DNA of 62,992 nucleotides, filler included, from Kipferlia bialata (taxonomy: Eukaryota): NCBI GenBank assembly GCA_003568945.1. It is 5 parts of 5 records of this genome, joined end to end, with 100 filler letters (N's around TTAATTAATTAA, not from the genome) between each part and the next. Parts side by side here need not be neighbours in the genome. Positions count along the whole stretch, not along the records: positions 1 to 13,776 come from BDIP01000901.1; 4 more parts are not named here. One strand, 5' to 3'. This document shows positions 110 to 50,869 of this stretch, one piece after another. The first letter of the stretch is position 1; each line of letters begins with the position of its first letter. Made by a program: the position numbers and the translations under genes. The notes under the pieces are model-generated. The model saw nothing but the letters and a program-made list of their open reading frames with translations. It was not told the origin of the DNA and searched no databases.

Positions 110-1475
110 CTCATGTCCCTTGGACACCGCCAGCTGACAGTTGGTGTACCCATTGCGCTTGATGGCTGCCAGCCACCCAACTACCTCTGCCCTGCCTCCC
201 ACTTGCTGGGGTCAGAGGGGGGGGGGTGTAGCTGAGTAACATATAACACATGTTCACCCAAGTGATACTACAACTATACTACACTACACTGTGAATAGAA
301 ATACCTTGAGAGTGGTTGTGATTGATGCCAGCCTCATCATGTTCTGCTGCTGGCCTGTCATGCCCTCCTTGTGCCGGGTGTGGGCCTGGGGGGAGGGACA
401 GAGTATCGGAAGACTATACAGAGATTCTTCACTCTTCACTTACAGAGCAAGATTCTTTCTCCTACATACATAAACTAGTACCTCTCGGAGCAGGACTGCC
501 ACGCACAGCAGACTGAGAGTATAGGGAACCACGTAATTAAATGATTACATACACATATACATACACACACACATCCACACCTCTCTGAGCATGACTGCCA
601 CGCACAGTGACTCCAGCTTGGCCATGGCAGACAGACCCCCCAGTCTGAGGACAGGGCCCAGGTGCTGGGGGTGGGAGGGGGGGGGGTTGGTATGATACTC
701 ACACTATACACTATACAATACTGATGAATACACATACCTCCTCAGACGCAGCGAGTGCCCTCAGCCCCTCTATGTCCCCTGACACTGCACACTCCACAAG
801 GGCCGCAAAGGAGTCTAGGCCCCTGGAGGGTCAGAACAGGCACACGGTGATATAATACTAGCACTAACCACTTGTATATATTGTACCCCCACCTAGCCCT
901 GAGGGTGTCTGGTCTGATGACTGCACCCAGGTTGAGGAGGGCCACGCCTAGGTACCTGGGGGTCAGACAGAGAGTAATACATCAGCAGGGAGGCAATATC
1001 ATACCTTCAGAAGTCAGATATATAGCAATAATGGTATGTATCAATCTAAGTGTGTATGTACTCCTCTACCACACGATATCCTAGATCCAAGACCTTCACG
1101 GCCTCACCTCTCTGCCAGCGCCCTGTTCCTGGTCCCCTTCCCCAACAGCTGCACACTGCCACACAGATCAACAGCAGCCTTGGTGTTCTGGTTGTCGGCC
1201 AGTCTCACACGGCCCCTGGGGGGTGAGAAGAAGGGTATATACCATATAATACCCTATTGCGCATAGAATATGGGCCTCCCCCACCTGTGGTTAGGAATGC
1301 TGCCATAAGCTGTGACTCTCTCTCTCCTCTCTCTCTCTCTATATATAATCATTCTCCCACCTGTGGTATAGGAATGCTGCCACCTCTGGGCTCTTGTTGT
1401 AGTTGACCCTGGCCCCTGCCTTGCCCTTGGCCTTGCCCCTCTTCTTGGACACCTGGGGTGAGTGTATAGAGAGAG

Positions 1476-1508
<33 letters not shown>

Positions 1509-2544
1509 TATATGAGCAGTCCCTTGGCCTTGCCCCTCTTCTTGGACACCTAAGGTCTCGGTTGACCTGTGCCTGCGCTGCCAATTCTTCCAGTATAGTA
1601 TATATATCGTATATATATACAGCGTATGTCTAAAGACAGCACACCCCACACCTGTGTCTGACCCAAAAACATAAAAAGAGAAATATATACATATATATAC
1701 TATTCTATCAATACATTACTCTTCTATATACACCCCACACCTGTGTCTGTGCCTGCACTGGTCTGACCCCCCCTGGTAGCAGGCACAGAGGCACATCGGC
1801 CTGCACATCACTCCTCTCCTTGCCAGCAATCTGGGGTGAGGGGGAGAGAGAGTACTGATACGGACATCAGGATAGGGACAATGAAGCGAACACTCAGAGA
1901 CACCCAGAGTATGGACACCTGGTATAGAATGGCATAACTGGTATGTATAGCACACTCTCCCACCTTAGCCACCTCGAGCCTGCCCAGTATCAGTATGAGT
2001 ATGAGTATCAGTATCATACCCCTATACAGGTATAACCCCCACCTTGGCCACCTCGAGCCTGCCCTCACTGATGCTGATGCCCAGCATCACATTCAGCACA
2101 GCCAGATACGTGTTCTTGGACTGGGGGGAGTCTGGGGTCAGAAAAGCATATTACACTGAATATATACACATACAAGTATACATTACACTACACTATAATC
2201 AATAATAATCAATATACTGTGGGGCGAGTCTGGGGTAAACGTGTGTATAATAGGAGGTAGCTACACTATATGGTAGTCTGGGGGATGGAGTGAGTTGAGA
2301 AGCGACACAGAGTATCCCTGTGGCCTGACTTGACTTAAACAAGTACAGTTGTGATGTCTCTGACACAATGAACATTGTGCTACGAGCATATTCTATATAT
2401 TATATACATCCTACAGTGGGAAGCAGAGAGTAGAGACAGAGAGTCCATTCCTGACTTTGACAGTCCAGCTGTCACATCTCTGGCACTGGACACAAACCCC
2501 TGGAGGTAGTCGGAGGACCCAGTGCCCTTCTGGGAGGCCTTGAT
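110..2544 (-). CDS. PCI-domain protein, PCID2/Thp1/Csn12-like; multi-exon, partial at both ends
   Basis: Hand-spliced exons give SKNTYLAVLNVMLGISISEGRLEVAK...VAAFLYHR-GRVRLADNQNTKAAVDL...RNRALAER-YLGVALLNLG...FAALVECAVSGDIEGL...EVVGWLAAIKRNGY. This is colinear with PCID2 as recalled (SKKWGMLFLVNQLFKIY...TYKYYVGRKAM...NKRMILIYLLPVKMLLG...FAEVTRAVSEGNL). Acceptors are ctgac/ctcac-cccag. Confidence 0.7.
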
Positions 2545-2789
2545 CTGGGGGGGTGAGACGGGGGTGGAGATAGTAGTGTATGGGAGGGGAAAGAGAGAGA
2601 GAGAGAGGGGGGGGGGGGAAACTAGTGAGAATAGAACAATGCTCAACTCTCTCACCCCCCCCCCCCCCCCCCCCCCTCCTCCCCCCCCCCCCCCCCCCCC
2701 CCCCCCCCCACACACACACCCTCCCGTCTCTCTCTCTCTCAGCGTCTCTCCCCCTCTCCCTCTCTCCCTCTCTCTACTGACGTTCAGAC

Positions 2790-3765
2790 CTACCGGATGG
2801 CCCACGTCTCCAGGACCCATATGCAGATGTACACAGGTAGGAGGATTGTCAGTATCACTGTGTGCAGCAATACTATGTACACAAGTATCGTATGATGATG
2901 CGTAGTACCAGGATCACAGTGTATATACACTAAATCGTAGTAGTGAATGTATATACTAAGATGCAGGGCCTGTGCCCTCAAGCTGATGGCCGAGGTGTCT
3001 GTCATGAATAGTTTCGTATATGTATCTCTATATTTGTTTATATGTATACATAGTGCGGTGTATTATTATTTTCTAACTATCAGAGCATGTGCCCTCAAGC
3101 TGATGGCCGAGGTGTCTGTGATGAGGGCCAAGGAGGCATATGGTGCATATAAGGAGCATGTGAAGGGAAAGGAGAAGAGAGGGACCCCTACCCAGGCAGA
3201 GACTGGAGAGACTGAGGGTAGTGGAGAGAAGGGAGAGAGTGGGGTGGATACTGCAGCAGAGGGTGCTGAGACTGGAGGTGAGGCATCTACCACACAGGCT
3301 GAGGAGGGTGACACTGTAAGGGAAGGAGAGGTAGAGGAGAAGAAGGCAGATGCTGATGGGGCTGCTACCTCTTCCAAGCCTACCCCTACCCCTGCCCCTA
3401 CCCCTGCACCCACTATGCCACCTGTACCTGCACTGCTGCCAGGGAAGGTATGTACCCTACTCTATAATTAGTAATAGTGCGTAGTTAATGCCATATTTAG
3501 TTCACCTGTGCCTGCACTGCTGCCAGGGAAGGTACTGACGCCCATTGTGTACACACAAGTCATATACATATATATATATATTTATATTGCACTGCTGCCA
3601 TGGATGGTGTGTAGTACTCATGTATATGAAGGGATCTTATGATATCAAGTACCCGTACCCCACTCCCCTATTCCCAATTATACTTGTTTTCTATTCATAT
3701 TCATATCCTATGTGTTAACCCCCAGGTTCGCAACCTACATATGGTATGGTATATTTGTATGTTGA

Positions 3766-3808
<43 letters not shown>

Positions 3809-6800
3809 GCCTGTCCTATATATTAACCCCCAGGTGCGTACTCTGCTGACCAGACTCAGAGTGGCAGAGGGACCAGGGCAGGTATATACACTATTCTTAA
3901 TAGTAGAGTATGTATACATTCATAATATATGGTATATTGCACTTAGATTCAACTCTTATCAGACTCAGAGTGGCAGAGGGGCCAGGGCAGGTAGTATGTA
4001 TAATCAATTGTATTGTCATATGCACGAGTATTAGACTATATATATATCTTTATCAAATAGTTGTGTTTGTGTGGTTTGTGTATATTGCATTTTCATGTCC
4101 CACCCCCAGGTTGTCAAGGGACTGGAGGCCATGCGGGAGATGGCAGAGACAGGTGATATATACATAGATATATATGTATATATATTGCATATACATGCAT
4201 CAGTGACAGACAAGTAGGTGGATTCATTATTCTATTATAGATGTGTATACACATACTATAGATGTGTGTCTATAATGTGTGGAGATGGCAGAGACAGGTG
4301 GGACCAGTGTATATAGAGATGTGCATTTAATGGTTACAGAAGTGTCAGAGACGGTGGGTCAGACATGGATACACACTCGTAAGTGTCCTGTTTTGTATTT
4401 GATGAGTTTCTCGATATATGACCTCACCCCAGTGAAGAATGACGTGTACATGTACGAGACTGGATGCCACATGGTACGTGCAATATTCTACATTCAAATA
4501 TCTCTTGTCTCCTATTAATTAGTACATTTGCGTGTAAATCTACTTGTTTTGTATATATATATAAATATATATATCTTGACCCCTAGGCCGCCCTGTACTG
4601 CATGTCCACCTATGCATCCTCACCAGAGGTCGTCACAGCCGGGGCAAGGGCACTGTGGACCATTGTGTTTGAAGGTATGTATCTGAGTATATAGATATCT
4701 CTTCAGGTACTTACTGTCAGAGAACCCCTCACACCACGCTTATAGATATATAGAGAGAGTATAAATAGATATAGATAGACACATGCACTTTCATATATAA
4801 TGTTTATAGTAATGGTGTCACTCAATCATATTATGAAACATGATACATCTATACTCACTGTCAGAGAACCCCCACCCGATGCACCTTGCAACCACAATAT
4901 AATGATGATGATAAATGTCGACTTACTCTTACTTACCCTTAGAGAACCCCCACCCGATGCGCCAGGGCATAGTGGACCTGGGGGCAGTCCCCCTGACACT
5001 CGAGTTGATGGGGTATGGGGATAGATATTCATATAGTGTATAGTTATGATATCATATGGAATATATGTATAGTATAGTATCCCTCACACTTGAGTTGATG
5101 GGGTATGGGGATAGTAATTAACCTATAATTGTGTTTGAAAGGTGAAATCTACAATACTTGTGAGTGGTTACCATAGAGCAGTCTGTCTTGACCCGAGCAA
5201 GCACTTCAACTCCCACCTCACCGTATAGTTGTAACTACAATGAGTGTATATGGCTGAACGATATCCTATATATTTCCAGTATCATTATAGTATCCTAATA
5301 ATCCCAGCAAGCACTTCTACTCCCACCTCCCCATATAATCGGTGTAAGTGTATACTATATATTTATATATTAATTCCTTACACTACCCTGACCCCAGCAA
5401 GCACTTCCACTCCCACCTCCCAGTCAACTGGCTGGTGGCCCTGCTCAGTGTGCTGGCCACTAAAGGTACATATGCTTTATTATATATGTTAAATTGTGTA
5501 TGGTATATTATATTTACTAGCTTAGTGGTATTGGAAAGTCAACTGGCTGGTGGCCCTGCTCAGTGTCCTGGCAACAAAGGGTGTGTTTATTAGTGTCATG
5601 AAGTGCTTGTTTACTACTATACTTAATCAATAGTACTGGCTGGTAACCCTACTCAGGTTACTGGCCACTACTTTGTTTGTATCTGAACATATCTATCACT
5701 CTTTCGTAGTAAAGTCTGGTTCAACTATAATCCATATGTATAATGTACCTAACCCTCAGATAGCAACAGGGACCTCATGTTTAGGCTGCAGTGCCACGTC
5801 CAGGTCATGAAGGCAGTGCAGAAGCACAGGGTACGTATACCTCTAACCGTTAACGTATGTTTATTACTGTTCAACTATATGTATGGCATGTATACTACCA
5901 ATTTAGTATCATTATACACCATCTCTTTCTTGGATATCAGGAAGGCAGTCCAGAAGCACAGGGTACGTATACCGTTATCTATATGTATGCAACCACCAAC
6001 CCCCTTTCTCTTTCTCGATCCACCCCCTCATACCAGACCAACGTTGGTGTGGTGACCCAGGCCTGTGGGTTCTTCAGAAACGTGTGCCAAGGAGGTGGGT
6101 CCTTTACTTCGTATATATATGCATCGTTAAGCACGTTGATAAGGATAGTCCAATATTGCCGTGGAGGTGGGCATTGTGAACTATCACTAATTATTGTTGT
6201 AGCAGATGACCGTAACCCTTTGCAGAGTTTGTATCTATATATTGTAATTATATAGATAGTATCGGCATGTCCCTCACCCCAGGCGCCACCAGACAGGTTG
6301 CTCTGGTCAAGCTCAAGGTGGTGCCCCTGCTGCTCAGGTATGGGGTGTTGACTTATAGATGACTATAATAATAATGTGCAACGTGTACATTAATATTGAT
6401 ATCTCAATACTACCTTGTTTCTTCCTGACCTTCAGGTGTCTATCCGAGCACCGCAATGACACGGTGCTGGTCAGATGGCTCCTGCTGGCACTCGAGATGA
6501 TGGGGAACGCAGGTATATATCATCTTTACTTTATATTTGCATTGGTACATTCATAATACATAGTCTAATGCTATAGACACGCTATAGTAATATCCTACAG
6601 GCACTCGGGATGATGAGGAATGCAAGTTTGCCACTTTAACGATATCACCAACTTATAGCGACATGCCTTTTACATGATATTAGTCTATGGATATTATTAT
6701 AATTCTCTGCTGCTCTAACCCCAGCTGCCAACCTGCCTGAGATGTATGGGGAGGGCTGTCACCTGCACTGTCTGGCAGTACTCAAGGTATATACATGTAC

Positions 6801-8724
6801 TTATACATTCATGTATTTGGTATGTATATACATCTACATCGGTATCTTCTCTTTTCTCTCACCTGCACTGTCTGGCGGTTCTCAAGGTGTGTATCTATAC
6901 CCTAATTATGTATGTACTGTCTGGGTACCTGTCAACACTATCGTGACTACACATATGTATATATGTATATGCATATATACTAACCCCAGTCCATGGGCGG
7001 TGTCACTTCAAGGCAATATCGTACTCAACGGTAATTCTTTAGTTTAATGGTAACGTATCAATTATAATGGACTAACCCCAGTCCATGGGCGGTGTCAAGG
7101 CTGCAGAGAGGGAGAAGAAGTCTGACAAGCTGGCACATTACATCAGAGTCAGTGCCCTGGCCCTGATGTCCAGACTGTGCGTGGATAGAGGTGCATACAT
7201 GTATTATACTTGTGTATATACATAGTATATAAAAGTGGGCAGGTGGTTAGTGCCCTGGCCCTGATGTCCAGACTGTGTCTAGATAGAGGTATGTATGTAT
7301 ATATATATATACATATATATTTATATAGAGAGAGAGGTAGATGGTATGGTATATGCGGTGTATTGGATAGTGCCCTGGCCCTCATGTCCAGACTGTGCGT
7401 AGATAGAGGTATGTATATGCATGTAGCACTCATATGTATATTATTCACATAGTAAAGTTTATAAGTAGATGATGGCCTGGCCCTGATATCCAGACTGTAC
7501 AGTAGATAAAGGTGTGTATGCACATTGTAGTCTCTATTATAATTCATAATAATACACTGCTGTACTGACACTCACTCCAGATACCACCTGTCTTGTCAAG
7601 GCCGGTGCTGTCTCTGTCCTAACAACACTCTACAAGTCAGTGGACAGGTACCAGGGAGGGGGAGAGACAGACACCAAGACTGGGAAGAAGAGTGAGACAG
7701 AGCCACTGACTGAGAAAGAGAAGGAGAGAGAGAGAGAGAGAGACCTGTCCCTCCTGGGCCACATCCTGTCTGCCGTATCCAGCATATCTGAGAACAAGGC
7801 CAATGTCCATGCACTGTACAAGGGAGACTGGCACAACTTGCAGGTATAGTATATATACATAGGCTACAATACGTATGGTACAATATATATATAGGGAAGG
7901 GAGTGTATATATGTTGTGGTGTATTTGTAGTACAGTATCTAGTATGTCCATCCACTGTACAACGGCGACTGGCACAACTTGCATGTATGGCTTGAAATTA
8001 TATATATATATCAGAAACCCCTTTGAATGTGTCCTATGTACTATCACTACCCTGACCCTCAGGTCAGTGCCCTCCGGTCCTACTACAATACACTTTTATA
8101 TATATGATATATATATATATATGTGTGTGTGTATATATATTCATACTATTTAATATATATACTCACCCCCAGGTCACTGCCCTCGGTCCTCCTACACAGA
8201 TGCCAGCATTGTATATTAGCTAATACATATATTTCTATGCATATACATGTATATAATATTAACTATATACTATCACTACCCTGACTATTAGGTCACTGCT
8301 CTCCGGTCCTACTACACAGATGCCAGCATTGTATATCATCCAATGCTCTCTATATATATATATATGTATATATACTATATATCACTATCTGACTACTAGG
8401 TCACTGCCTTCCGGTCCTACTACACCGATGCCAGCATTGTGTCCAGTCTGTGCAGACTGTGCAGCTGGATGTCAAGAGGTAGATACATATTCTCTCTCTC
8501 TCTCTTTCTCTCCATCTCTCCATTTATTTATATATGATTAGAGTATACATACATTTGTGTGTAGGTGTGTATCTATGTGTCCTGACCCACCAGACGCCAC
8601 CGGTGTCAAGAGATGCATTGTTCAGGCCCTTACATCTCTTTCTCTCTCTCTATCTCTCTATGTACCTATGTGAATCCTGATCATCAGATGCCACCAGTGT
8701 CAAGAGGTACATTGTTCAGCCCTC

Positions 8725-8777
<53 letters not shown>

Positions 8778-11282
8778 GCATATTGATGAATGTGTATCTG
8801 ACCCCAGACGCCACCAGTGTCAAGAGGTGCATTGTGCAGGCCGGTATGCCTGAGGCCATGGTACTGGCCCACACCCAGTGGAGGTCCAACACTGGCATCA
8901 TAGCAGACATACTCTGGGCCATCAGCCACATGGGGGCAACAGGTGTGGATTGTATACATATATATATATATATATATATGTATACATATAGTGAGGCTAT
9001 GTATATATGTATATGTATGAGTGTGTATAGGTAGCAGACATACTCTGGGCCATCAGCCACATGGGGGCAACAGGTGGGGATTGTATACATATATAGTATT
9101 GATGTGTATATATAGTCACGGTATATTCACACATACTCTGGATGATAATAATTAGGCCGCCACTGTCCCGTCCTGATAGATGCCAAGTTATTACTGTATT
9201 TAACACTGTGTATCTTAATGTCTATACATGGTTAAATGCAATGCTTGTATGATAACATCAGGCCGCCACTGCCCTGTCCTGATGGATGCCAAGTGGCACG
9301 AGCATGCCTATGAGAGCCTCAAGGAGCACCCAACAGACATCAAGGTATGTATTGTCGCTTAATAGTGTATGAATAGCATACATTTCTTTTGAGTGTCCCC
9401 CCCCCCTCCCCCCCATCGTCTCTGTTACACTTGGTATGTAGAGATTTACTATAACTACTCTCTAATGCCAGGTGTGCCGGCAGAGCATGTGTCTGCTCAA
9501 TGTATTGGCCAAGAATGGTGAGTGAAAGTGTATATACATAATACATTAAAAGAAGAAGAAAATAGAATTCTTTATAGTTTTAATATATATGAATGTATCT
9601 CATTATATCTCATTCTTAGATGCTGACCGCACTGCCTCTGTGTACTCCCTGGGGTGTGTGGGCACAGTCATCAAGGTGGGGGTAGAGTTATAAATACACG
9701 TATTGTTATATATCCATATGTACTGACATATGTATGTATCTGTAAGTGTTAACCAGGATCGGCTATAATATAGATATATATAGATGTCTCCTGTGTACAT
9801 TAATGTTGTTGTAGTATCCCCTCCCCTTCTTCACTCCTTACCGTATTTGTTTGTGCATCGTTGTCTCTCTATGTATCTCTTTTCATACATATACTACTAT
9901 ATATACTTTTGTATATGTGTTTGTATATGACACACATTGTGTAAGTGTGTAATTGTATATGTGAGTTTCTCACATCAGGCCATGCGCAACCACCTAGACA
10001 ACACCGATGTCGTATGGAGGGGTCTCCTACTGCTCACAACACTCACCACACCCATGCTAGGTATATATATATACCTAGTATTATATACATGTAGGTATTA
10101 GTGACCATATTGACCAGACCACCCTGCACCAAAGTAATATTCTGGTTCTGATTGTGTATACTGGGTTGAGTATTGTTAGTTATCCTCATAATGATCCAGC
10201 CTTGCCCATGGTCTAGTTCTCTTCCACTGGCCCTTCTTAGAGTGGGTCTCGCTCTTAGCTATATATCCCTATTCCAATACTGTATCCAACGAGTAAGCAA
10301 GATATTAGTATCAGTGACACTCAGAGAGAGTGTCTCCCTCAATTCCTAAACTATACTATATTCGTGTACAAGGTATTAGTATCAGTCACATTGCTAACCC
10401 CTCAGAGAGAGCGTCTCCCTCTGAGATGAGAGAATGTGGTGAAGTGTGTGGGGAGGTACTGGCCAAGCAGAAGGAGGCCAAGGTGAGGATGTAGCAATAT
10501 ATACGGGGTTACAATTATATAATATGTATATGAATGTATGTCACCAGAAGGAGGCCAATAATTCAAGGTGAGAATATTAATATAGTTAGATGTGTGGGTA
10601 TATATTAGTATTTTTGACATATGTATAATAGTTGTTTGTGTTCTCTGACCCCCAGGTTGACCACCAGAATATTCATATAGATATATATACATATATATGT
10701 TAATATATATTATTGTGATTATATAGCACTATTACCCCCAGGTTGACCACCAGACTGTCAAGGCATCTGCTGTATATATATATATGTGTGTGTGTGTGGG
10801 TGTGTGGGTGTGGGTGTTTATAGATATAGATATATTAGTTCTATGCCTCTGACCCCCAGGTTGACCACCAGACTGTAAAGGCCTCTGCTGGTCTGGCTAC
10901 CACTCTTGTGGAGAAGATGAGTGAGGGGGTTAAGAAGGTGTGTGGAGAGGCTGGGATTGAGGTTGAGGGGGAGGCAGGAGAGAATGCCGATGCAGTGGAG
11001 GAAGAGGCTCAGACTGTAGATGAGACCCAGACCGATGCAGGTAACACTGGCCAGTCTCCAGAGGAGGGAGAGCCTGACACTGCAGGAGAGAGCATGGCCG
11101 ATAGAGCTACTGCCACAGCAGAGGCTGCAGAGAAGGGGGAGGATCCTGCAGAGACTACTGCAGTTACAGTAGAAGAGGGAGAGGGGAAGGGAGAGGACCC
11201 AGAGGGAGAGGGAGAGGGAGAGAGGGAGAAGGGTGTTGAGGAGGACCCTGCCCCTCTTTCCCAGGACACAGAGGCACAGTGA
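2790..11282 (+). CDS. Large armadillo/HEAT-repeat protein, >20 exons, 5' end missing, acidic low-complexity insert and tail
   Basis: Spliced exons such as SPEVVTAGARALWTIVFE, RQGIVDLGAVPLTLELMG, NVGVVTQACGFFRNVC, VKRCIVQAGMPEAMVLAHTQWRSNTGIIADILWAISHMG and AMRNHLDNTDVVWRGLLLLTTL have ARM-repeat periodicity. The last exon ends in TGA at 11280-11282. Confidence 0.7.
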
Positions 11283-11608
11283 GAGAGAGGACTATTGTGA
11301 TTGACATTCATTATCTCCCAGTCACTGGCTCTCTCACACAGATCAATATTCCATTCTTACTATGCATTGCTTTCAGTGTTGTGTGATTTCAATTCATTAT
11401 CGGATTTCAATAGACACCCCAGTGTAATGCACTAGACATAATGTCAATTGATGGTGTCAGTCGGTCAGGACTCCTGAGTCTCAGGAGACGAATATCCCAC
11501 ACTTGAATAATCGTATATACGCCATAATGTAACCCGAACATTCGCAATGCAAAGTTCGCATTGTGACTTGCAAATTGAGTTGAGTCCCCTTGCTGCTGGC
11601 ATTGTACC

Positions 11609-12549: not shown

Positions 12550-12691
12550 GTCTCTTGACATATTTCAGAGAATGATTTGGGTGTAGCGCGTGGTATCGTG
12601 GTGAAAGGGTTTGTGAGTCGAAAGGAGATTTATATATATATATATGTCCAATGAACAAAAGTTGTCATACGAATCGTCAAGATTGGTCCAG

Positions 12692-13676
12692 TCGTGACAA
12701 GTGAACCAAAGGTTGAGAAATTTTCATTGCCACTTGTCACCCACAACTTGTCAACAGTACGTGTGTCACACCGACATACACAGTGTCACTCTTCTCTTTC
12801 ACAACCTGACATACCCCATCAGTGGTACCTCAGCGAACTAACAGAGAGAGCACGTTAACACAACCACAACAAGTAGTAGGTAGCAGGCTGGGATAGCAGA
12901 GAGTGTGAGACTCACACTGTGAGTCACACTGTGTGACATGGACTCTGGTAAAGAGTCCACGGGGGCCAAACATAGTCTGGAATACTAGGCTGGCAGAAGT
13001 GAAGGAGTATCTACGCTCTCACAAGACATGGCCATCTAGGCGCCAAGGTTCACTCGGTGATTGGGTATATACTCAAAGATGCAGCTATAGGAGAAGGAAG
13101 CTGTCACAGGAACGTATTGCAGCGCTGGAGAAGTTGGACATTGATTGGAACCCAGGCAGACGGACTAATCAGTAGCGATGCTACGTACAAGTTGACATTG
13201 CAGGCCGTTGTACACCATTAGGTTAAGTACTATCGTGGGACTTAGTGTAGAAGAACGCTTGGTATTGGAGTCTATAGTGTGTACACAAGTGTATAAGATG
13301 AAATGATATAGTAGTTAGCCAGACGTATTGGGCATCACAGATGTCCAAAGTTGACTTAGTAACAAGATTTGATTACATGTAGGTTGGTACGGGACAATCT
13401 GTGTATACGTTCCAAGGATCACTGTCTGGCAACATTGAGGACGTGACGAGTGAGCCAAAAGTTGACCATATTTCGGTGCCACTTGTCAAGCAAAAGTTGT
13501 CATCAACAGTGAGTGACACACTGACACACACAGTGTCAGACCTCTTCTTCACAGGCTGTCGTTCACTACTAGTGATATCTTGGGTTACTGACAGGGTAAA
13601 CACTGGTTCACAGAAACACTACAAGTAGTAGGTGCCTGTGGATTGGGAAAGTAGAGAGTGTGACATGGACTCTGGG
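12692..13676 (+). repeat. Diverged direct duplication (about 12692-12948 vs 13442-13676) of an upstream region ending in ATGGACTCTGG
   Basis: Shared blocks in the same order: cgtgac-agtga-ccaaa-gttga, tgccacttgtca, acacagtgtca, acaagtagtaggt, gtgtgacatggactctgg. Confidence 0.75.
12933..13175 (+). pseudogene. Isolated helicase-associated (HA) domain, out of frame with the family start codon; probable truncated paralogue
   Basis: WNTRLAEVKEYLRSHKTWP...LGDWVYTQRCSYRRRKLSQERIAALEKLDIDW matches the HA pattern and the HA domains near 43340-43520. The ATGGACTCTGG start at 12938 is in another frame and soon hits TAG. Confidence 0.6.
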
Positions 13677-13776
13677 GTAGAGCATGTCAAGCAGGAGCCC
13701 CCACTTAGACACCTGGCTATATCCACACACACAGTCAAGGTGGAACCAGGCATTGACAGGGATGCAGAGAGGGTGG
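13665..13776 (+). CDS. 5' exon of an HA-domain family gene (MDSGVEHVKQEPP...), cut by the contig end
   Basis: ATG at 13665. The last 51 bp are identical to the first 51 bp of the contig starting at 41620, where the frame continues. Confidence 0.6.
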
Positions 13777-13876: not shown

Positions 13877-13889
13877 GAGAAGGGAGGAA

Positions 13890-13930
<41 letters not shown>

Positions 13931-14949
13931 GACGAGAGTACTGGTTGCAGAGTCCCTCTTACCTATCAACCCTGAATACCACTAAGATACAGCTCGGTAC
14001 CAGAGTTTGCTCGGAAGCTGGTAAGAAGAAACACTGCCTCAGATTCGGTAGCATCTTCCCGAGATTAAACAGGCACCTGGCCACACATCCAGTCGTAGTT
14101 CCAGCCTTTCTAGCGCGGCCTGTCTCACTAGAGTCTAAATCCAGAAATCTATACCGAACCCTCGTCTGTTTGGCAAGGGAACGATGGCTACTGTGAGAGC
14201 TCAGAATGACCATGCAGGGTACAACAATGCGACACCCACCTTGCGACTCTCTCTTTCATCATCTTATCAAGGGCCTGCCGGCAGGACGCCACGTCAACGG
14301 GACAGAAGTATTCATCTTCTGTCTCGCCGTGTAAGGAATCATCATTGGGAGGCAAATACGACAAGTTCCTCAGGGATAGTGAAGAACTAGGGTCATCCAT
14401 TACAGTTGGGACATACTCCCAACAAGAATAGGTTGACTCTGTGTAATCACGACTGAAGACGTTGCGAGTTGACACGTGTCCAAATTGAACCTAGTTAAGT
14501 CGTAAACATAAGTCTTAAATCTGTTTTCATGACAAATATGCAGATCACAAGCACATTATGGTGGGAGAACGTATACACAGAGAGATGAGTAATAAGAACC
14601 CCTCATGACAAGGTGTGGGCATGTCATGGTTTCAGATTGCCCACTTATGCTGTGAATAACACTGTAGGTTTACTGGGTCACAATTAGTCAACCCAGAGTC
14701 AACGCAGGTCACCACAAATGGCATAAGGGTGTAGGCTAGCAGTATAAGGTTCAAGTCCACCTGGATGTTCCAATTGACTTGTGTTCCTATCACTCACTAA
14801 CCTGCTGTTTGGGGGACAGACCTCACTTGACACTTGTGACAGGACGCTTTTCATCCTGTGCAGGCCCCAAGTATTCGGAAGGACCTTAGTTAGAACAGAG
14901 GACCAGTTCCACATAAGCGGGACACATCTATACCAATACGCATATTCAC

Positions 14950-16433
14950 ATGGACAACCCAATGGTGATGCCCGACTCAGTACCTGCCCCCCCTATCACA
15001 TCAGCAATCGCTGAGGTGGCAAGGCAGGAGCCAGACCCCCCTGACAAGGGTTCGATGTTCGAGGGTCACACCCTTGCCTATCCCGCTCCTAGCCCCAAGA
15101 AGGAGGTGGTCGCTGTGGCAAAGCCTGCCCCTAAGAAGGCCAAGAAGGTACAAGTAGTGTTACTCACTGTCAGTGTCAGAAGCTCCGCGATGTGTTTACT
15201 GATTTCAATAAGAATGATATACTTCGTCACTATCTCACCGTAGCGTTATGTACCCGTTAGCCCTGAGATTGTGGCCCAGGTGATGCTCTGGCACACCACT
15301 GAGACCCAGGTATCGTATGTTTGGCATGTACCATTATGGGCAGTGTCTCAATTTGTATTGCGTTTTCACTTGCTATCAGTGTGGTTTCAGTCAAATCTCC
15401 ACAATTCTCATTGTGGTCCTGTCTCATGCCAGTCTCGGGGCAAGCCAGATGTCAACAGGATTGTGAACAAGCTCGGGATCAGCCGCTCGTCATACTACAG
15501 AATTGTGAGGTATTGCCTGCACATGTCAGTGTACAAATATTTGACTGGGTATTCTGATTCCTTCTTACCCTCCCAGGTCAAATGGACAGTACACCCCCCT
15601 CAAGCGTGGAGGGTCCAAGTCCAAGCTGCAACCCGAGAACATGCGTCTTCTGTGGCGCCTTCTGGGTGCCAACCCCTCCGCCTCCATATCCTCTCTCATG
15701 AGGGCCACACAGGGGTCCAACTTCCCCAAGGTGTCCGTGGCCACCTACAGACGCAGGCTGGATGGCTGCCTCCTGCTCTACGCCCCCTTCTGCCCCCCGC
15801 CCCCCATCCCCCTCCCCGTGCTCCCCCTTGTTGCGGTGTCGCAGTGCTCTGTCTCCATGTGGGGCACCCTGCCCCTCCCCAAGAGCCAGGAGGAGGCAGG
15901 CGCCGACCCCGACCCCCAGGTGGACCCCGCCACTGCCGCAGACGGCATGTCCTGGGTGCATGCCATGTTTGTGCTCAGCACTGTGGACCACAGGGTGCTG
16001 CACACCGTGGTCGGGGAGCAGATCAGCTCGGAGCAGGTATGGGTACAATGCTGAGGCCGACAAGCCTTCCTCATCAAAGTTCTCTGTTCTCGTAACACTT
16101 CTAACACTGCCTGCCTCACCCCAGATTGACACCGCCCTGACCATTGCCCAGGACGCAGCTGTTGATGACGAAGCCCAGCACCAGTGTGCCGCATACCCCT
16201 ACCTCGCCGTAGTCACTGAGAGGTGGCTCAACCTGGCCAGAGACCACCTGGCGACACCTGAGAAGCAGGCCCTCATCGCCCAGACTGAGAGGCTACCCCC
16301 CGTGGACAGGGTGAGGGAGAGGGCCGGCATGACCCTGGAGGCCATGACAGTGGCTGCCGAGGACCTCAAGCGCATCGAGGGGATGCCCCTGTACGAGGCC
16401 CTTCCCCCCGAGTCCCCCCTCTACTGGCTGTGA
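14950..16433 (+). CDS. Protein with a Tc1/mariner-IS630-like tandem HTH DNA-binding region and no recognisable DDE domain; about 5 exons
   Basis: Spliced: RYVPVSPEIVAQVMLWH...DVNRIVNKLGISRSSYYRIVR-SNGQYTPLKRGGSKSKLQPENMRLLWRLLGANPSASISSL...VSVATYRRRL. This is the HTH1 / GRP-like linker / HTH2 layout of these transposases. Confidence 0.65.
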
Positions 16434-16786
16434 GAGGCAGGGCACACTCATGTACCCGAGGGCCGGGGGATGGGGGCACTGAGTGCTCTCCCCCGACCCC
16501 TATATGAGGCTGGGTCGACACACGTAGCGTGTCCGGCCCATCTCACCACCATCCTGGGCGATACCGCCCTGGATACCAGAATTAGTCATTGCTGCCGCTT
16601 CTCCCACTGTTGGGAGTACGCAGTCAAGTTTTTATTATAGTTGGCCTTTTCGTAAGGCATTAGTCGTCCTCTCCGGAGGCTCTCCCTAGGTTTAGGGTAA
16701 TAGATGGTAACCTATTAACAGCTCTGGTGTTGCGTCTCAGTGGAGTATACCCACGGTGGTTGTCCCATCCAACAATATCGGTATAT

Positions 16787-18342
16787 CTATTGCATCTCTG
16801 CATCAGTGTCATCCCCGAACTGCTCGTGGAACTGCACCACTGTCTCTGCCTTGGCGTCCACCTTCTGCCCGTGCTGGGCATTGGCTAAGGAGACGGTGGG
16901 CACTACATCCACCACAGTGACAGTGAGAGAAGGGGTGTCGACGGTGTACACCACCTTGAACGACCCCAGCATCAGCACCCCCTTGGATCCAGACTGGGGG
17001 TAAGTAAGGGGTTAGGGGAGGGTTACGCCCATCATATATACTCCAGCCCCCGTACCTTTGCCTCCTTATGGGTGCGTGTCTTGAGTGGGTTCCGTGCCAG
17101 GCCTCCCTTGATCATGGCCCACACATCCACCCTCGTCCCAATCTCACTCTTAGCCAGGAAGTCACACATCGAGTGCACCCTGGGGCCACTGGTATTGACA
17201 GTGTACACAACACCAGTGTCTGTCTCGGTAGGGTCTCTGCCGGCTGACGGCTGTGCTGCGTCACTGCCCGAGGAGTAGGTGTCATAATGTAACGGCAGCA
17301 GAGAGCCTGAGGTTAAGCATTATGAGACATTAAGAGAGTATATATATCGCCTAGCACACCCAGCCGCACCTTGCTGCCCCTCCTGCTGCAGCCACCCTGC
17401 CTGTGCCCCAGGGACATCGAACCCAGGGGTGTATGGCTGCAGGGCTATGATGGGGGTCTCGTCCAGCAGATCTGCCCCGGATATCGTGATGACGCCATGG
17501 GCCACGTCCACATCAGCAACAAGAGACAGAGACAGGCCAAGGGGGTTGGGGCGGAAGGGGGCCCTGGTGGCAAACATGCCTATGCGGCCCTTGCGTCTGG
17601 GGGGCAGGACCCTGGCACGGTAGTGGGCATTGCGGTCAAACTGGAAGTGCACAAAGAGGTATCCACCTGAGGGTAGGGCTAGAGATGCATAAGGAGATCT
17701 AAACACACAGGGATATGAGGTATCTGTAATCGCGTTGAGTATGTTATGTACACATGATACTTCTGACACACACCTGGGCTGACGTCGGGCAAGGCATTCC
17801 CGTCGAGCATCCTGATGTATGACACCCTGCCAGCACTCTCACCCAGGAAGGGCTGCCTTGGTGCCTCAAATCTGTCCCTTCTAGTTAGAGGGGGACATCA
17901 GTATCGATACGGTATATGTGATTGGGTAGAAGCATAGAGCAGCATCCACTTATCGACCCAAGAGAGAAAAGACTCACTGGGAGGATACTGCAACCTCCCC
18001 CCCCCCTTCCCCCCACCTGAATGTGCCCTCTGCCACGGCCACAGGGAACAGCCTCACAGCAGGTATTGGCCCCTCTCCCAGTCCCTTCTCCACCTCCCTC
18101 CGAGTGGCAGCCTCGCGTTGCTGCTGCCGCACTGTGTTGTGGTGCAGCTCGTGGGCCAGCCTCTCTGCCAGCAGTGCTGGTGTGGCCATCTCTGAGGGAC
18201 ACTGCATGCGCCGCCTCTCCAGCTTGAGCCGTGCCATCTGCTCAGCCTCTAGGGCCTCCAGGGCCTCAATCTCTCGCTGGCACGCATCACGCTGCTGGAT
18301 ATAGGTGTCGAGAAAGCTATTCACCGCATCCTCCTTTGGCAT
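16787..18342 (-). CDS. trmO: TsaA/TrmO (YaeB) family tRNA m6t6A37 methyltransferase-like protein with N-terminal coiled coil; 5 exons
   Basis: Motifs RFEAPRQP, FVHFQFDRN, VLPPRRKGRIGMFATRAPFRPNPLGLSL and ISGADLLDETPII; TAG stop at 16787-16789; AATAAA on the minus strand near 16630. Confidence 0.85.
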
Positions 18343-19290: not shown

Positions 19291-19468
19291 GTCCTCCACC
19301 CCTAACCACGTCTAAAGCAGGATTCCGAGGATATATGACTGCGTTGGAAGGTGGAGAAGCATGAGCTCACTGACTCTGATGGACCCTCTGGATGCAAAAA
19401 CCTTGGGCAACATCACTGCTAACTGACCTCTCTAGATCTACAGGGTTTGTGGCAGGTGCTGTTTAAAG

Positions 19469-23300: not shown

Positions 23301-23380
23301 GGGTGTGTGGAGAACGCGGAGTGGGTGTGTTTTTGTGAGTGCCTCCTTTTGGAGGGATAGGTTGTACAGAGAGACGTTTC

Positions 23381-43538: not shown

Positions 43539-43726
43539 GATGCACCAAGCGCAAGTCAGTGATCCAATGTGGACACGAATTGCCAGCAGAGCCACAAATT
43601 GGTGTGTGGAAGAACATAGAGTAAATACAATTTCAATCCTCCTATTGGGAACACTCTGCCCTCCATATGGGACCCATTATACCAATCATGACAATACGTC
43701 ATCTATTACAGACAGTGTCTTTGTCT

Positions 43727-45359
43727 CTACTCGACACTCCACAGATCCTCAATGCTGTATCCCTCTGCAAGGGACTCGATGCACAGACCGAGCTCGGGAC
43801 TGGAGTCAAGAACAATGGAGAATGGAAGAGAAACCAATAGTAATGAACTATTATAGTATATACTGCCAATGACAAGATGCACAGACCCAGCTCGGGACTG
43901 GGATCAGGGGTCAAGAATAGAGAACAGAATTGAGAATAGTATTGTTATAAGAGAATAATACATAGACCTACACATATATATACCTGAAGACTGGGTCTCT
44001 CTCCTTGGTGTCCTCCCCACTGGTGGTGGAGTACCTGGGGTTAGACAGTACAGCAGACCTATTAACCACAGTGAAGTGAATACATGAGAGACCGCATGAT
44101 AACTTGTTACTAGGCCTCAACAACTAAGAGAATGCGAGAGAGAGTAGGTACTCACAACACCACTGTATATATACTATTCAATATCAGTTCTTAACAATAC
44201 ATATGATCTAACCTTGCCAGGATGTCCTGCTTCATTAATACATCTATATGTACATATATATAAATATATATACTAATATATATATCTATACATTGTCTAA
44301 CCTCGCCAGGACGTCCTGCTTCATTAATACATCTATATGTACATATATAAAGTATTCTTTTTACATTTGTATATATATAGAGTATTATATATATCAACAT
44401 ATAATCTTACCTAGCCAGGATGTCCTGCTTGTGTGCAGCCTCAGGTGCGCCAGGCAGTACCTTAGGGTAAGAGACCACAAGTAATACGATAAGCACTATA
44501 TACTTGCTGTACTATATCAACTATGTATATATTTCCTGTATACTCTTTCACTGTACACCTGCTCTACTATCCTGCCTGGCTGCATCTGCTCAGAATATAC
44601 TTCTACTCGATACTATTTCTACACGATATACCTGCTCCACAATCATGTCTGGCTCCATCTGCTCGGTATACTATTTCTTACTCGATACTATTTCTACACG
44701 ATATACCTGCTCCACAATCCTGTCTGGCTGCATCTGCTCCGTGACTGATGCCAGATCTGCTGGGCCACTCTCTGTGACTGCCCTGACTCCATACTCTGGC
44801 TTCACATTGGCAGCCCTGCACATCTGGATGATCTCGGCAGCTACAGTGTTCAGCCTAGTATGAGAAGACATATATACATTTACATTGATATAGTGTAGTA
44901 TTGTATGTATATGTTCAGCCTAGTATGAGAGGACATGAATACATATTTCACTATATCACTATACACCTTGTGGCTGGGTCTATTCTGAAGCCCATTGAGA
45001 ACTCGGACCCCTCTGCCTGGGAGGCAAGGACAAGGGCAGGGCCGATGCGGGTCTTCCTGAACAATTAGGAATAGCACTATTCATAGTGGATATCCATATA
45101 GTACATACACTATAGTACAACATGGTTACTCATAATGTACATGGTATACTGTATGTGGTACTCATACCTTACACCCACGCTGTCCATGGCCACATAGGGT
45201 ATGGCCACATATAATGCATACACTATACACAATCAATATATATATGTGCATATATACATATATATGTATATATATCAATACCTTACACCCACGCTGTCCA
45301 TGGCCACATAGGGTATGGCCACGTTGAAGTTACCAGAGGCCTCGGCATACCAGATAACA
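43727..45359 (-). CDS. BBS5: BBSome subunit BBS5, C-terminal half only
   Basis: VIWYAEASGNFNVAIPY...KTRIGPALVL...MGFRIDPATRLNTVAAEI...PEYGV...ERDPVFSPELGLCIESLAEGYSIEDLWSVE* matches the BBS5 C-terminus as recalled (IVWHAN...FNVSIPY...GFKIDP...REPVFSEELGLAIEKL). Confidence 0.9.
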
Positions 45360-45751
45360 CTGCTTGTCAGATGTGTACATACATATACATACAGAATTGA
45401 GTAAACACTAATACATATATGTATGAATATAGTAACCGGAGGCCTCGACATAACATATGACCCTAGAGTGAGATATACATACATGTAGAGAGAGAGACTA
45501 AGATAGAGAGAAAGAGAGAAATATAGTAGTTACCAGAGGCCTCGGCATAACCGATGACCCTAAATTGAGAAGTGTATATATAAAAGATATATATAGAGGC
45601 GAGAGAGATAGAGAGAGAGGGTGGGAGGGGGGGGGGGGGGGGGGGGTATTAACGGCGTGTATACAGAGAAGACAGCCCAATTGTACATATGATAGATGAA
45701 GCATTATGAATGTGTACAATACTCTTATGTACATATATATATCCCACTCAC

Positions 45752-46538: not shown

Positions 46539-48098
46539 ATGAAGGTCCTCCTTCTCGCCTGTGCCTTCCTAGCCATGGCTGCGGCCACCCCTGACTTCAA
46601 GCAGTGGCCCAACCTGCTTGAGGTGTCCACCCGGCCCTGGCTGTACGAGATGACCCAGCAGTACGGTTACCTCATCTCTCTCTCCAACGTTCCCGACGCT
46701 GAGCTCGATGCCATCCAGGCAGACGGCATCACAGCCCTCTACGCCCTCGGCATGTGGTCTCTGGGACCCTACGGCCTGGCACACGACAGGACAGACCCCG
46801 GCCTGCTCTCCAGCTATGCCCAGGTGGACAAGTTGGGTGTTACCCTCTATATATTAGCCCCATACACCCACTCACTGACCCCAGACCCTCCCCGACTACA
46901 CTGTGGACGACATCATCGGCTCCTGCTTCGCCGTCACCTCCTACACCATCAACCCCGAGGTACTGGTGTCTCTGACATGTGCTAGTATTAGTCCATTTTC
47001 ATACACCTCCCCACTATCTCCTCTTCCTCACCCTAGATTGGCACTGAGGATGACCTTGTCACCTTCAGGCAGAGACTCCACTCCAGGGGCATCGCCCTCT
47101 ACCTCGGTAAGACTGACTCGTTTATGTCATATGTGTATATGGCTCAATCAATGGCTCTAGTATCTTTATTTCAAGGGTATCGCCCTCTACCTCGGTCCGT
47201 CCAGACTGATACTGATTCCACTGACTCGCATCGTACATATAGCCACTATGACAAGTATTTCAATACAAACCATAACAACCACTAACCTCCCAGACTTTGT
47301 GCCCAACCACTCTGCCGTGGACAGTGTCCACATGAGTGAGCACAACGAGTACTTCATCCACGCACCAAAGGTATATACTACCTACTTACTCTCTCTCTCA
47401 CTGTATCTCTCTCTGTACCCCCCTCTTCCCTCGGATAAGCACTGCATCCAAGGTGTCTACACCTCTTTCTATATACCCCTCCCCCCACCCATGTGGACCT
47501 CTCTCTCTCTCTTCCTCACCCCAGGGCCAGACCTCCCCCAAGCCTCTGTCTGTCTCTCTCTCTCTCCCTCACCCCAGGGGCAGACCTCCCCCTACGACCC
47601 CTCCACCTACCTCCCAGATGGCACTGCATTTGGAAAGGACAAGTACGGCAATGTGTGGACAGACACAGGTAATGAGTATGTGTATATACCCCTGTACAGT
47701 ACATATATACATATACCTATATATATGTATATTGATAACAATGTTCCTGTGTCTCTAACCCCCAGCCCAGTACAACTACTGGGACACCATGACCTACCAT
47801 GCCCGTATCATGGAGCTGCAGACAGTGGCATCATTCGCCGATGGAATCAGGTATGTATATATATATGGATCGATGTATAGATATGTGTTGGTACACGACA
47901 TGATATGATATATATGTCTATTCAATGGGAACTGCAGACAGTGTCATCATTCGCTGATGGAATCAGGTATGACTGCCCCCCCCCCCCCCATACTTACACT
48001 CATATATATACAAATATATATGATGCATATATTTATGTATATGTGTGTGTGTTCCATTTCCTCACCTGCAGGTGTGACATGGCCATGCTTGCCCTCAA

Positions 48099-48136
<38 letters not shown>

Positions 48137-50869
48137 CTATACCCACCTGCAGGTGTGACATGGCCATGCAGGCCCTCAACTCTCTCTTTCACTCTCCCTC
48201 TCTCTGTGTATCCCTCTCTCTCTCTCTCTCTCTTTCTACCCTCACCCCCAGGTGTGACATGGCCATGCTGGCCCACAACACTCTCTCTCTATTTCTCTCT
48301 GTCTCTATGTATCCCTCCCTCTCTCTCTCCCTCTCTCTCTCTATATATATATATATATAGATACTCACCTCTAGGTGTGACATGGCCATGCTGGCCCTCA
48401 ACTCCCAGATCGCAGACATCTGGAGCTACACCCTCACCACATGGGGATACACTGCCCCAGAGGTATGATTTCATATAATTATATTTTCCATTAGTTCCGT
48501 ATACAATATGTATACGTTTGATAGACATTGTTCTATATACCCCTCACCCCAGGAGGAGTTCTGGCCTGCTGCCATCAGTATCATATGTATATATATGTAT
48601 CATTACTTAAAGATTCATATATAAATATGTATATATGTATATGTATTACACTGTATTAATCCCGCAGGAGGAGTTCTGGTCTGCTGCCATCAGGGCTGTC
48701 AAGCAGGTCTACCCAGGTGGGGCCGGTTTGAGTGTATATAGTATCCTCTTTCTACCATATTGGTAACCGAAGTTAATATCTGACTGTAGTATAGGAAATA
48801 TGTCATCTCTTACCTTAGACACTATCTTCATGGCCGAGGTCTACTGGGGTCTGGGCCAGGACCTCCTGGACACAGGCTTTGACTACGTCTATGACAAGGT
48901 GACACTGCTCTCTCTCTCTCTCTCTCTCCCCCCTCTCTTTCGCTCTTTGTATATGTGTCAGTATGTCAAGGTGCCAATACTCTCTCTCTCCCTCCCTCTC
49001 TCTGTATGTGTGAGTGTGGGTCTTTTTATGTGTGTCTGTGGTTGTCAATATGTCTCTCTCCCTCTCTCTCCCCCCCTCTCTCTCTCCCTCTCTCTCTCCC
49101 TTACCCTCAGGAGGGTCTCTACGACACCCTCTCTGGCGAGTACCTTGACAACATCAGGTGGGTTTGCGTATATATATGTATGTGGAATGATCTCGATGAA
49201 GTACTATCATTGTGTTATTATTGTATGTACAGTGTCCATCTCTTGTCTATGTCTCCCTTGCCCCGTAGGAACTACATCAAGTACACCTCCTTCGACTACA
49301 TATTATGTATACAATTATGTGTGCATATATATTTAAGCAGACATGTGTTTATATATATATATACTAAGCATCTCTCCCTCAACCCAGGAACTACATCAAG
49401 TACACCTCCTACGACTACCTGTCCCACGGCACACACTTCATCGAGAACCACGACGAGGGTGAGAGATACATATACATATAGTATAGTAATACATATATAC
49501 ATACTATCCATGCTGATACTTCATCGAGAACCACGACGAGGGTGGGTGTAGTACATATATATATAGTTATATGTGTACATACAATGTGTGATACGGTAGA
49601 CGCTGATTCTGCCCATACTGGTACATTCATCGAGAACCACGACGAGGGTGGGTGAACATGTATTATGCATACATGTGTTATTGTAAATACTAGTACTGAT
49701 ATCTGACTACATATGAATATACCCATCTCACCCCCAGGCCGTGCCGTTGAGCACTTTGGGTCTGTGCCCGTGGCAGATGCCGCTGGCCTCATTACATTCA
49801 CACTCCCAGGTATGTATATTAAGGGTGAATGGAGTGTAATAGTATATACGCGTACATCTCTCTTACTATAGGTATGAAGTTCCACTTCCAGGGCCAGTGG
49901 GTCGGCAAGAGGAACAAGCTCGACGTCCACCTGAGACGCTCATACGCTGAGGCAGACTCTACCGAGGTATACATGTCTTTTGGACCAAGTCGCTTCTATT
50001 TTTAATACCTTGCGTTCTCTGTTTCTCTCTCTCTCTCACTCTAGGCTGAGGACCTCTACGGGGCCCTTCTGCCCATGCTCAATGACGATGTGTGGCACCT
50101 GGGTACGGATGTCTCTCTCTCTTCCTCTCTCTCTTCCTTGTGTGTCTCTATCATATATACGCGCTCCCCCTCTTGTTCTCTTCCTCTGTCTCTAACCCCA
50201 GGGACCTACACCTATGGGGATGTGTGCTTCTCTCTCTCTCTCTCTCCATCTCAGTTTCTCCTAATCTCCTCTCACTATAGGCACCTACACCTACGACGAC
50301 GTGTGGGGCACTGATGACTGCTGGAGACTCATGTCCTGGAGATACGAGTACAACGGAGTCAAGGTACTGTTCCACTTCCATCTCTCTCTCCCCCTCTCGC
50401 TCTTTCTCTTCCCTCTCTCTTCTTCTTACCCCCTCAGGTTGTGGTCATTGCCAACTTCAGTGACCAGTCCGGGTCTGGTAGGGTCTCCGTGCCCAACGCA
50501 GGTATGATTTATATGAATTTCATATATATGTGTTATATACAAATACGTATACATATACATATACACTGGGTCTGGCAGGGCCTCCGTGCCCAACGCAGGT
50601 TTGTATACATACTCTCTCTCTCTCTATATATATATGGATACATATATCTCACCCCCAGGCAACGGCTCCGACTCCCTCGTCATCACTGAGAAACTCTCTC
50701 TCCCTCCCTATATATCCATATCTAACCCCCAGGCAATGGCTCTGACTCCATCGTGATCACTGAGAAGCTGTCTGGTGCCGAGTACACCCGTTCTGCCAGT
50801 GACATGAGGGACAACGGCCTCTTTGTGATAGTGGATGCATGGGACGCACAGATATTCTACTACCCATAA
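46539..50869 (+). CDS. Secreted GH13 alpha-amylase-family glycoside hydrolase, many introns
   Basis: Signal peptide MKVLLLACAFLAMAAA; GH13 conserved regions LDFVPNH, DGIRCDMAML (nucleophile D), FMAEVYW (acid/base E) and FIENHDE; TAA at 50867-50869. Confidence 0.92.

What the first reader, a model, noticed from the sequence alone, without database searches (positions are those of the whole stretch)
2960..10880. Polarised exon stuttering: introns filled with partial copies of the adjacent exon ends and their splice sites
Seen: many exons of the ARM gene have echo copies. Upstream of the intact exon lie acceptor + exon-5' fragments that fade into TA/CT microsatellite (e.g. ctaaccccag-TCCATGGGCGGTGTCA near 6981 before the full exon near 7082; GTTGACCACCAGA near 10656, 10742 and 10860). 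Downstream lie exon-3' fragments + GT donor (GCCCTGGCCCTGATGTCCAGACTGT..AG/gt near 7153, 7252, 7372 and a more decayed copy near 7474). The same rule holds in the PCID2-like, copine, BBS5 and amylase genes and two hypothetical genes, on both strands and three contigs. Inference: a systematic local duplication process centred on splice junctions that lengthens introns and surrounds each true splice site with decoys. I know of no description of this at such density.
Basis: partly seen in the sequence, partly recalled or inferred. Interest (0 to 1): 0.85.

Follow-up and report, generated by a model that had tools for sequence, protein, structure and literature searches.

The report
Exon-end echoes from diverged alleles
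In the free-living protist Kipferlia bialata about half of the introns examined hold short copies of the neighbouring exon's end with its splice site, which the one messenger RNA checked skips, and the copies differ from the exon the way a working gene variant would, so they were likely copied from diverged alleles during DNA repair.

Summary
Real and not an assembly error. The window is Kipferlia bialata. 62 of 126 modelled introns hold 110 echoes of about 30 exon bases plus splice site, about 100 bases apart; none is wrong-sided. One RNA contig splices the ARM gene at the first donor and last acceptor throughout. The polarity needs no special process: any tandem duplication across one splice site gives it. 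Such repeats are known as amphioxus 'mirages', and this scan met single-locus stacks before in a sea urchin and an annelid. New here: echoes differ from their exon 3.8 times more at four-fold than at non-degenerate sites (neutral copies give about 2); mismatch jumps from about 8% to 40-55% at the first base beyond GT or AG; and changed decoy motifs keep true-site strength. The echoes look like ends of other working alleles. Best reading (0.55): imprecise homologous repair between diverged homologues, anchored in exons, in a lineage lacking NHEJ and Rad51A. No second allele or strain was found to test it.

The parts
2788..11282 (+). ARM-like gene (public model KIPB_004280), 23 exons and 22 GT-AG introns in the part modelled; 30 echoes in 16 introns
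   Evidence: 13 joints shown by an RNA contig; contig arithmetic constant at 7 anchors and 814 open codons; identical to residues 33-846 of P0004
2968..3007 (+). acceptor-type echo of exon 3084-3447
   Evidence: score 70; skipped by joint 2836>3084
3503..3604 (+). two donor-type echoes of exon 3084-3447
5198..5670 (+). exon 5398-5465 with two acceptor echoes (5198, 5308) and two donor echoes (5537, 5635)
   Evidence: joints 5012>5398 and 5465>5760
6990..7005 (+). acceptor echo whose 8 intron bases before AG equal those of the true site at 7082
   Evidence: skipped by joint 6786>7082
7246..7511 (+). three donor echoes of exon 7082-7190, each followed by GT
   Evidence: skipped by joint 7190>7581
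8063..8332 (+). three acceptor echoes of exon 8400-8478
   Evidence: skipped by joint 7843>8400
8594..9073 (+). two acceptor echoes of exon 8808-8942 and a near-exact donor echo (9032-9073) that shares its intron flank: a young ordinary tandem copy
10656..10772 (+). two acceptor echoes of exon 10860
   Evidence: RNA piece starts at 10858
110..2131 (-). hypothetical gene, 9 exons modelled, echoes in 4 of 8 introns
   Evidence: open frame
43725..45362 (-). 3' half of BBS5, echoes in 4 of 5 introns
   Evidence: PF07289 hit
46539..50869 (+). GH13 amylase, 17 exons, echoes in 8 of 16 introns
   Evidence: model identical to public P0001, 508 aa
51032..54995 (-). hypothetical gene, 12 exons modelled, echoes in 6 of 11 introns

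Best explanation
These introns hold tandem copies of an exon end, its splice site and some intron, about 100 bases a unit, which the ARM messenger RNA skips, and most copies were likely made during homologous repair from a diverged homologue, so that two units in a row would come from different working alleles. Shown: units of about 30 exon bases and 68 intron bases, perfect sidedness, and use of the exon-proximal site in the ARM gene. Deduced from geometry: a duplication across an acceptor leaves the partial copy upstream, one across a donor leaves it downstream. Inferred: copies inside or over whole exons are purged. Inferred: where allelic introns no longer match, a broken end can pair only in the exon; synthesis runs through the other allele's splice site into its intron and then switches back out of register about 100 bases away (perhaps through Pol theta). 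Each round adds one unit, which then decays neutrally (about 5% so far). Inferred: the decoys are harmless because sites are paired across the short exon (exon definition), possibly helped by decay of mis-spliced RNA.
For: Four-fold sites differ at 101 of 562, non-degenerate sites at 98 of 2056: ratio 3.8, bootstrap over 79 arrays 2.9-4.9; ARM alone, in an RNA-confirmed frame, 30 of 164 against 27 of 568. A simulated neutral echo beside an exon free at synonymous sites gives mean 1.99, maximum 2.94 in 200 runs. Echo against next echo: 35 of 142 against 35 of 508. Only 7 of 88 variable calls in arrays are shared by all echoes, so the exon did not simply speed up. Mismatch is 4-18% over the last 12 exon bases and 40-68% from +3 on (50 donors); 2-24% over the first 12 exon bases and 24-64% from -3 on (42 acceptors); ageing of exact copies predicts about 0.8 of 8 flank mismatches, 3.6 seen. 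Decoys changed at 2 or more of 4 donor positions (29) or 4 or more of 10 acceptor positions (23) still score near true sites and far above intronic GT or AG. Divergence is near-binomial across 92 echoes and unrelated to flank mismatch. Period does not follow exon length (rho -0.02). Metamonads lack NHEJ and fornicates lost Rad51A but keep two Dmc1 (PMC8516963 section 8); K. bialata has PolQ, Spo11 and Rad10 (its supplementary table). Scored present: U2AF65 and five SR proteins; absent: SF1, Prp40, U2AF35 (PMC6679479 supplement).
Against: No second allele was seen: the DNA run shows no other letters on the ARM stretch, no related locus came up in metagenomes, and no close paralogue for ARM or amylase. 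The model needs intron bases next to GT and AG to diverge several times faster than four-fold sites, which is unexplained. 17 of 92 echoes have at most 1 of 8 flank mismatches (6 expected), and units such as 9032, 36187 and 44667 are near-exact, so ordinary same-chromosome duplication also happens. The nearest echo scores above the farthest in 18 of 23 arrays, as nested same-allele copying also predicts. Echoes with related flanks show the same ratio (3.79) as those with unrelated flanks (3.63). The echo-echo interval reaches down to 1.9. Non-synonymous differences are not more conservative than chance (p 0.25; 4 stops against 3.7 expected). The dispersion test is weakened by local-alignment trimming. 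RNA evidence covers one gene, one contig, major isoform only.
Confidence: 0.55

Rival explanations
1. Ordinary same-chromosome tandem duplications (mirage-like), followed by very fast turnover of TA-rich intron sequence and occasional conversion of the echo, or of the exon, from exon sequence.
For: Near-exact young units exist; nearest copies score highest in 18 of 23 arrays; flanks keep some relatedness (11 of 48 acceptor flanks in the top 1% of controls); echo-bearing genes have TA-richer introns even where no echo is found (0.130 against 0.078 TA per base).
Against: Predicts a four-fold ratio of 2 or less unless other alleles supply the converting sequence; predicts no step at +3 and -3, where the register is fixed; predicts that changed decoy motifs weaken, but they do not.
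Confidence: 0.2
2. Echoes are old and kept under selection today because recombination (pop-out between the 30-base repeats, or conversion into the exon) often moves them into the working position, so harmful changes in them are purged.
For: [quoted passage not shown]
Against: By my arithmetic it needs population diversity of roughly 0.1-0.5 per site to reach a ratio of 3.8 (inference); fast exchange should homogenise spacers, but only 2 of 28 neighbouring flanks are in the top 1% of controls; the 8 gaps are all frame-breaking and stops occur at the neutral rate.
Confidence: 0.12
3. Echoes are translated or regulatory now, through alternative use of the decoy sites.
For: GT kept in 50 of 55, AG in 42 of 48; decoys as strong as true sites; contigs drop rare isoforms.
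Against: Period is a multiple of three in 36 of 103 (chance) and only 8 of 103 are in frame and stop-free; the ratio is as high in out-of-frame echoes (3.96); no extra AG or GT at the inner edges; the RNA contig uses none in ARM.
Confidence: 0.06
4. Echoes are remnants of whole duplicated exons that were once mutually exclusive and then lost one end.
For: Would give a period of coding constraint on both copies.
Against: Period does not follow exon length (exons of 263-654 bases have periods of 81-141); loss of either end should give wrong-sided remnants, 0 of 110 seen.
Confidence: 0.04
5. Assembly artefact: two alleles laid in tandem by the assembler.
For: The copies look allelic; the DNA run laid may be the source of the window; the assembly seems to have false joins at poly-G and poly-C tracts.
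Against: One 3530-base unitig at depth 437 covers 3817-7278 with no difference and spans 13 of the listed echoes; each spacer-to-exon junction is sequence that neither allele would hold, so a de Bruijn graph could not invent it (inference).
Confidence: 0.03

Closest known systems
Amphioxus 'mirages' (Adh3, globins BflGb6 and BflGb9, TnC, PGBD5; PMC3087553 section 16 read, PMC3902484 one passage; the original Canestro et al. 2002 paper is not held)
   Same: [quoted passage not shown] The PGBD5 repeats are described as imperfect.
   Different: Mirages are minisatellite-like (81-100% identity over units in BflGb6, with concerted evolution) at scattered loci. Here 1-4 copies, about 93% identical in the exon part but about 50% from the first intron base on, in half of the introns examined, with a synonymous excess that I did not find reported.
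Human F7 intron 7 37-bp VNTR with silent 5' pseudo-sites (PMC1557585, abstract seen)
   Same: The first of several copied donors is used and stronger downstream ones are ignored.
   Different: One locus, identical repeats, donors only; here the last of several acceptors is also chosen, which 5'-to-3' scanning alone does not explain.
Rogers (1989) intron gain by tandem duplication and internal gene duplication (Gao and Lynch 2009), as cited in PMC3087553
   Same: Short intragenic tandem duplication that supplies splice signals.
   Different: No new intron or exon arises here; an existing intron lengthens and the copy stays out of the ARM mRNA.

Membership tests
amphioxus-type mirages | tandem repeat unit spans an exon-intron boundary | tested here: met
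   103 of 110 echoes reach the exon end; residual flank similarity above control
amphioxus-type mirages | occurs at both 5' and 3' boundaries and many units keep AG or GT | tested here: met
   AG 42 of 48, GT 50 of 55
amphioxus-type mirages | normal splicing is not disturbed | tested here: met
   ARM major isoform only; rare isoforms not visible
amphioxus-type mirages | minisatellite-like units, similar over their whole length and homogenised within the cluster | tested here: not met
   flanks match at 12 or more of 14 bases in only 2 of 42 acceptors and 4 of 50 donors; 2 of 28 neighbouring flanks in the top 1% of controls
amphioxus-type mirages | length polymorphism and somatic instability of clusters | not testable with these tools
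   one sample, contigs only
Rogers-type newborn introns | duplicated exon segment supplies both splice sites and one copy's worth is spliced out between them | tested here: not met
   splicing uses the original boundaries; no excess AG or GT at inner edges
mutually exclusive duplicated exons | whole exon copied with both splice sites | tested here: not met
   0 of 110 whole copies; period independent of exon length
dispersed mobile introns (introners) | related copies in unrelated genes | tested here: inconclusive
   exon-derived parts match only adjacent introns; introns were not compared with each other across genes

The most novel reading that the evidence does not exclude
In K. bialata, mismatch-tolerant repair between long-diverged homologues is a genome-wide force that writes the exon ends and splice sites of other alleles into introns. 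Its introns would then be a readable fossil record of lost alleles, the process would account for much of its intron length, and a protist with 100-base introns and no detected SF1, Prp40 or U2AF35 would pick sites by strict exon definition.
Probability: 0.4. Interest if true: 0.88.

Novelty: new variant of a known kind. Interest (0 to 1): 0.72.

Why it matters
The origin of boundary repeats ('mirages') is called unclear in the one group where they are described; here there are over a hundred in 63 kb with a measurable signature that points to diverged alleles as the source. The genome also offers a very large natural test of exon against intron definition: in all 16 ARM introns with intact decoys a normal-sized intron (69-264 bases) could be cut from the copied sites, yet the longer one is spliced. 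Practical point: echoes fool gene finders (my own put 5 false mini-exons into ARM and split a true exon).

Tried and rejected
No whole genome was held, so counts rest on this window. Only two runs hold the ARM stretch, from one sample; none is on record as RNA, though one gave a spliced contig. RNA evidence for the other six echo-bearing genes is lacking; they rest on open GT-AG frames and, for amylase, the public protein. No related locus in metagenome contigs: 592 pattern hits, none confirmed. The Rpb8 exon search found nothing. RIP-like or CpG context as cause of the third-position excess: C>T is raised at CA and CG but the four-fold excess holds for every base (ratios 2.3-5.7). End-trimming of alignments does not remove it (3.7 and 3.6). 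Conservative bias among non-synonymous changes: none. Amylase relatives at about 50% identity were too distant to tell echo from exon residues. Purely intronic or intergenic duplicates: of 161 direct pairs 35-420 bases apart, 138 are exon-echo or echo-echo; by eye 17 of the other 23 are further boundary copies, 1 is a coding repeat and 5 lie in an unmodelled gene region on contig 5; fast intron decay could hide such pairs, so centring on junctions is not proven. Sec23 counts as echo-free over its 9 modelled introns but has an echo after its last modelled exon. Literature searches (listings only) gave no account of these repeats in Kipferlia; its genome paper has 0 hits for 'duplicat' and 'tandem' in the main text (parts 1-2 of 6 read, supplements not seen). 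Most subscription papers are outside the library.
Full report
Setting. The window is five contigs joined by N linkers. A search with amylase exon 1 returned a 100% identical 508-residue protein named for Kipferlia bialata on a contig of 13765 bases, the length of contig 4; the ARM exon returned KIPB_004280 on a contig of 13776 bases. K. bialata is a free-living fornicate with 124,912 introns, assembled from short reads and thought diploid (PMC5874029, parts 1-2 of 6 and passages).

Gene structure. An RNA-like contig laid on 2760-11400 shows 13 GT-AG joints. With nine more introns filled in, the model has 23 exons and 814 open codons, and the contig's own coordinates fit at all 7 anchor points; it equals residues 33-846 of the public protein. 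Six more echo-bearing genes were modelled by hand as open GT-AG chains; the amylase model equals the public protein. Seven further genes served as denominator.

Exon matches lie in adjacent introns only (29 of 126 upstream, 42 of 126 downstream, 0 of 1646 non-adjacent at score 30). Of 110 echoes none is wrong-sided, and in the 17 introns with both kinds no acceptor echo precedes a donor echo. The first period has median 99 bases (53-175): about 30 exon-derived plus 68 intron-derived bases. Removing echo units leaves a median of 104 bases, against 97 for echo-free introns and 279.5 before removal. Echoes cluster by gene: 62 of 94 introns in seven genes, 0 of 32 in seven others (none of 20000 permutations reached this). 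A 3530-base unitig at depth 437 spans 3817-7278 without a difference; that run may be the source of the window, but junctions between spacer and mid-exon could not be invented by a graph.

Polarity is geometry. A tandem copy across an acceptor leaves the broken copy upstream; across a donor, downstream. Copies within or over whole exons would change the protein and be purged (inference). With exons and introns both near 50-130 bases, most surviving 100-base duplications must span one site. So sidedness does not show targeting. Clear intron-only duplicates were not found, but intron sequence decays too fast for that to be decisive.

Splicing. In all 16 ARM introns with intact decoys the contig uses the first donor and last acceptor (11 by direct joints, 5 by length arithmetic), though copied sites would allow a 69-264-base intron and decoys equal or beat the true site in 26 of 50 donors and 23 of 42 acceptors. 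Only 8 of 103 decoys would give an in-frame, stop-free product. This fits pairing across the short exon; leak plus decay cannot be excluded from contigs. A published table scores U2AF65 and five SR proteins present and SF1, Prp40 and U2AF35 absent in K. bialata (PMC6679479 supplement); that SF1 and Prp40 bridge across the intron is recalled, not checked.

If echoes were neutral copies of the present exon, four-fold sites could differ at most about twice as often as non-degenerate ones. They differ at 101 of 562 against 98 of 2056, a ratio of 3.8 (2.9-4.9); a pipeline simulation gives 1.99, maximum 2.94 of 200. The excess holds in ARM alone, out of frame, after trimming, for each base and between neighbouring echoes (3.5, interval 1.9-5.9). 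Only 7 of 88 variable calls are shared by all echoes of an array, so the exon has not simply run ahead. Mismatch steps from about 8% to 40-55% at the first base beyond GT or AG, where the register is fixed; 12 of 17 echoes identical in the exon part already differ at 3 or more of 8 flank bases. Yet changed motifs remain consensus-like (G at +5 in 18 of 29 changed donors against 182 of 954 intronic GT). Non-synonymous changes, stops and gaps look unfiltered. So each echo carries a neutral layer of about 5% over an older layer shaped like divergence between working alleles.

Mechanism. The simplest source of such units is a diverged homologue. Metamonads lack NHEJ, fornicates lost Rad51A and keep two Dmc1, and repair by recombination is thought to dominate (PMC8516963 section 8); K. 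bialata has PolQ, Spo11 and Rad10. That Dmc1 tolerates mismatches and that TA repeats are fragile is recalled. If allelic introns no longer match, pairing is confined to exons, and an out-of-register switch near the boundary would leave one allele's end beside another's. Echo-bearing genes have TA-richer introns even where no echo is seen. Against this: no allele was seen, some units are near-exact same-chromosome copies, nearest copies tend to score best, and the fast divergence of intron bases is unexplained. I give it 0.55; plain duplication with fast intron turnover 0.2; ongoing selection through recombination 0.12.

Known kinds. The structure here works like a mirage but fails the whole-unit similarity test, so I file it as a new variant. 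Ten searches of the held library (listings) showed no account of it in Kipferlia nor of the synonymous signature; the original mirage paper and the genome paper's supplements were not seen.

Verdict. Observation confirmed, interpretation partly supported, interest 0.72.

Noticed in passing
2545-2790; 31700-31900; 45560-45760; 58775-58990: Genes seem to break off at poly-G or poly-C tracts and run into a different gene (hypothetical/ARM, PCID2-like/copine, Rpb8/BBS5 3' half, Sec23/unknown). Likely false joins in the assembly. The RNA contig's 75-base loose end before 2784 does not look, by eye, like the first exon of the public ARM model at about 2412-2507.
   Followed up: partly
58751-58850: Sec23 has no echo in 9 modelled introns but one donor echo after exon 58704-58774, just before a poly-C tract.
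   Followed up: partly
59086-60900: Unmodelled AT-rich gene region on contig 5 with five direct pairs, among them a 71-base pair 225 apart and a donor-type pair at 59402.
   Followed up: no
all modelled acceptors: A branch-point-like motif lies within the last 12 intron bases in 93 of 126 introns (background 5%), with a C-run before AG, recalling the fused branch point and acceptor of Giardia introns (recalled).
   Followed up: partly
43050-43535: Gene with two helicase-associated (HA, PF03457) domains and no echo in its introns.
   Followed up: no
13880-27640 (contig 2): The four genes modelled on this contig have short, complex introns with few microsatellites and no echoes (0 of 18 introns), so the process is patchy along the genome.
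   Followed up: partly
coding and intron sequence of the models: CpG is depleted about three-fold in both exons (0.34) and introns (0.36); cause not examined.
   Followed up: no
12640-12960 and 13420-13680; 13640-13776 and 41620-41680: By eye, a diverged repeat pair lies in the last intergenic stretch of contig 1, and the end of contig 1 shares about 45 bases with the start of contig 4.
   Followed up: no
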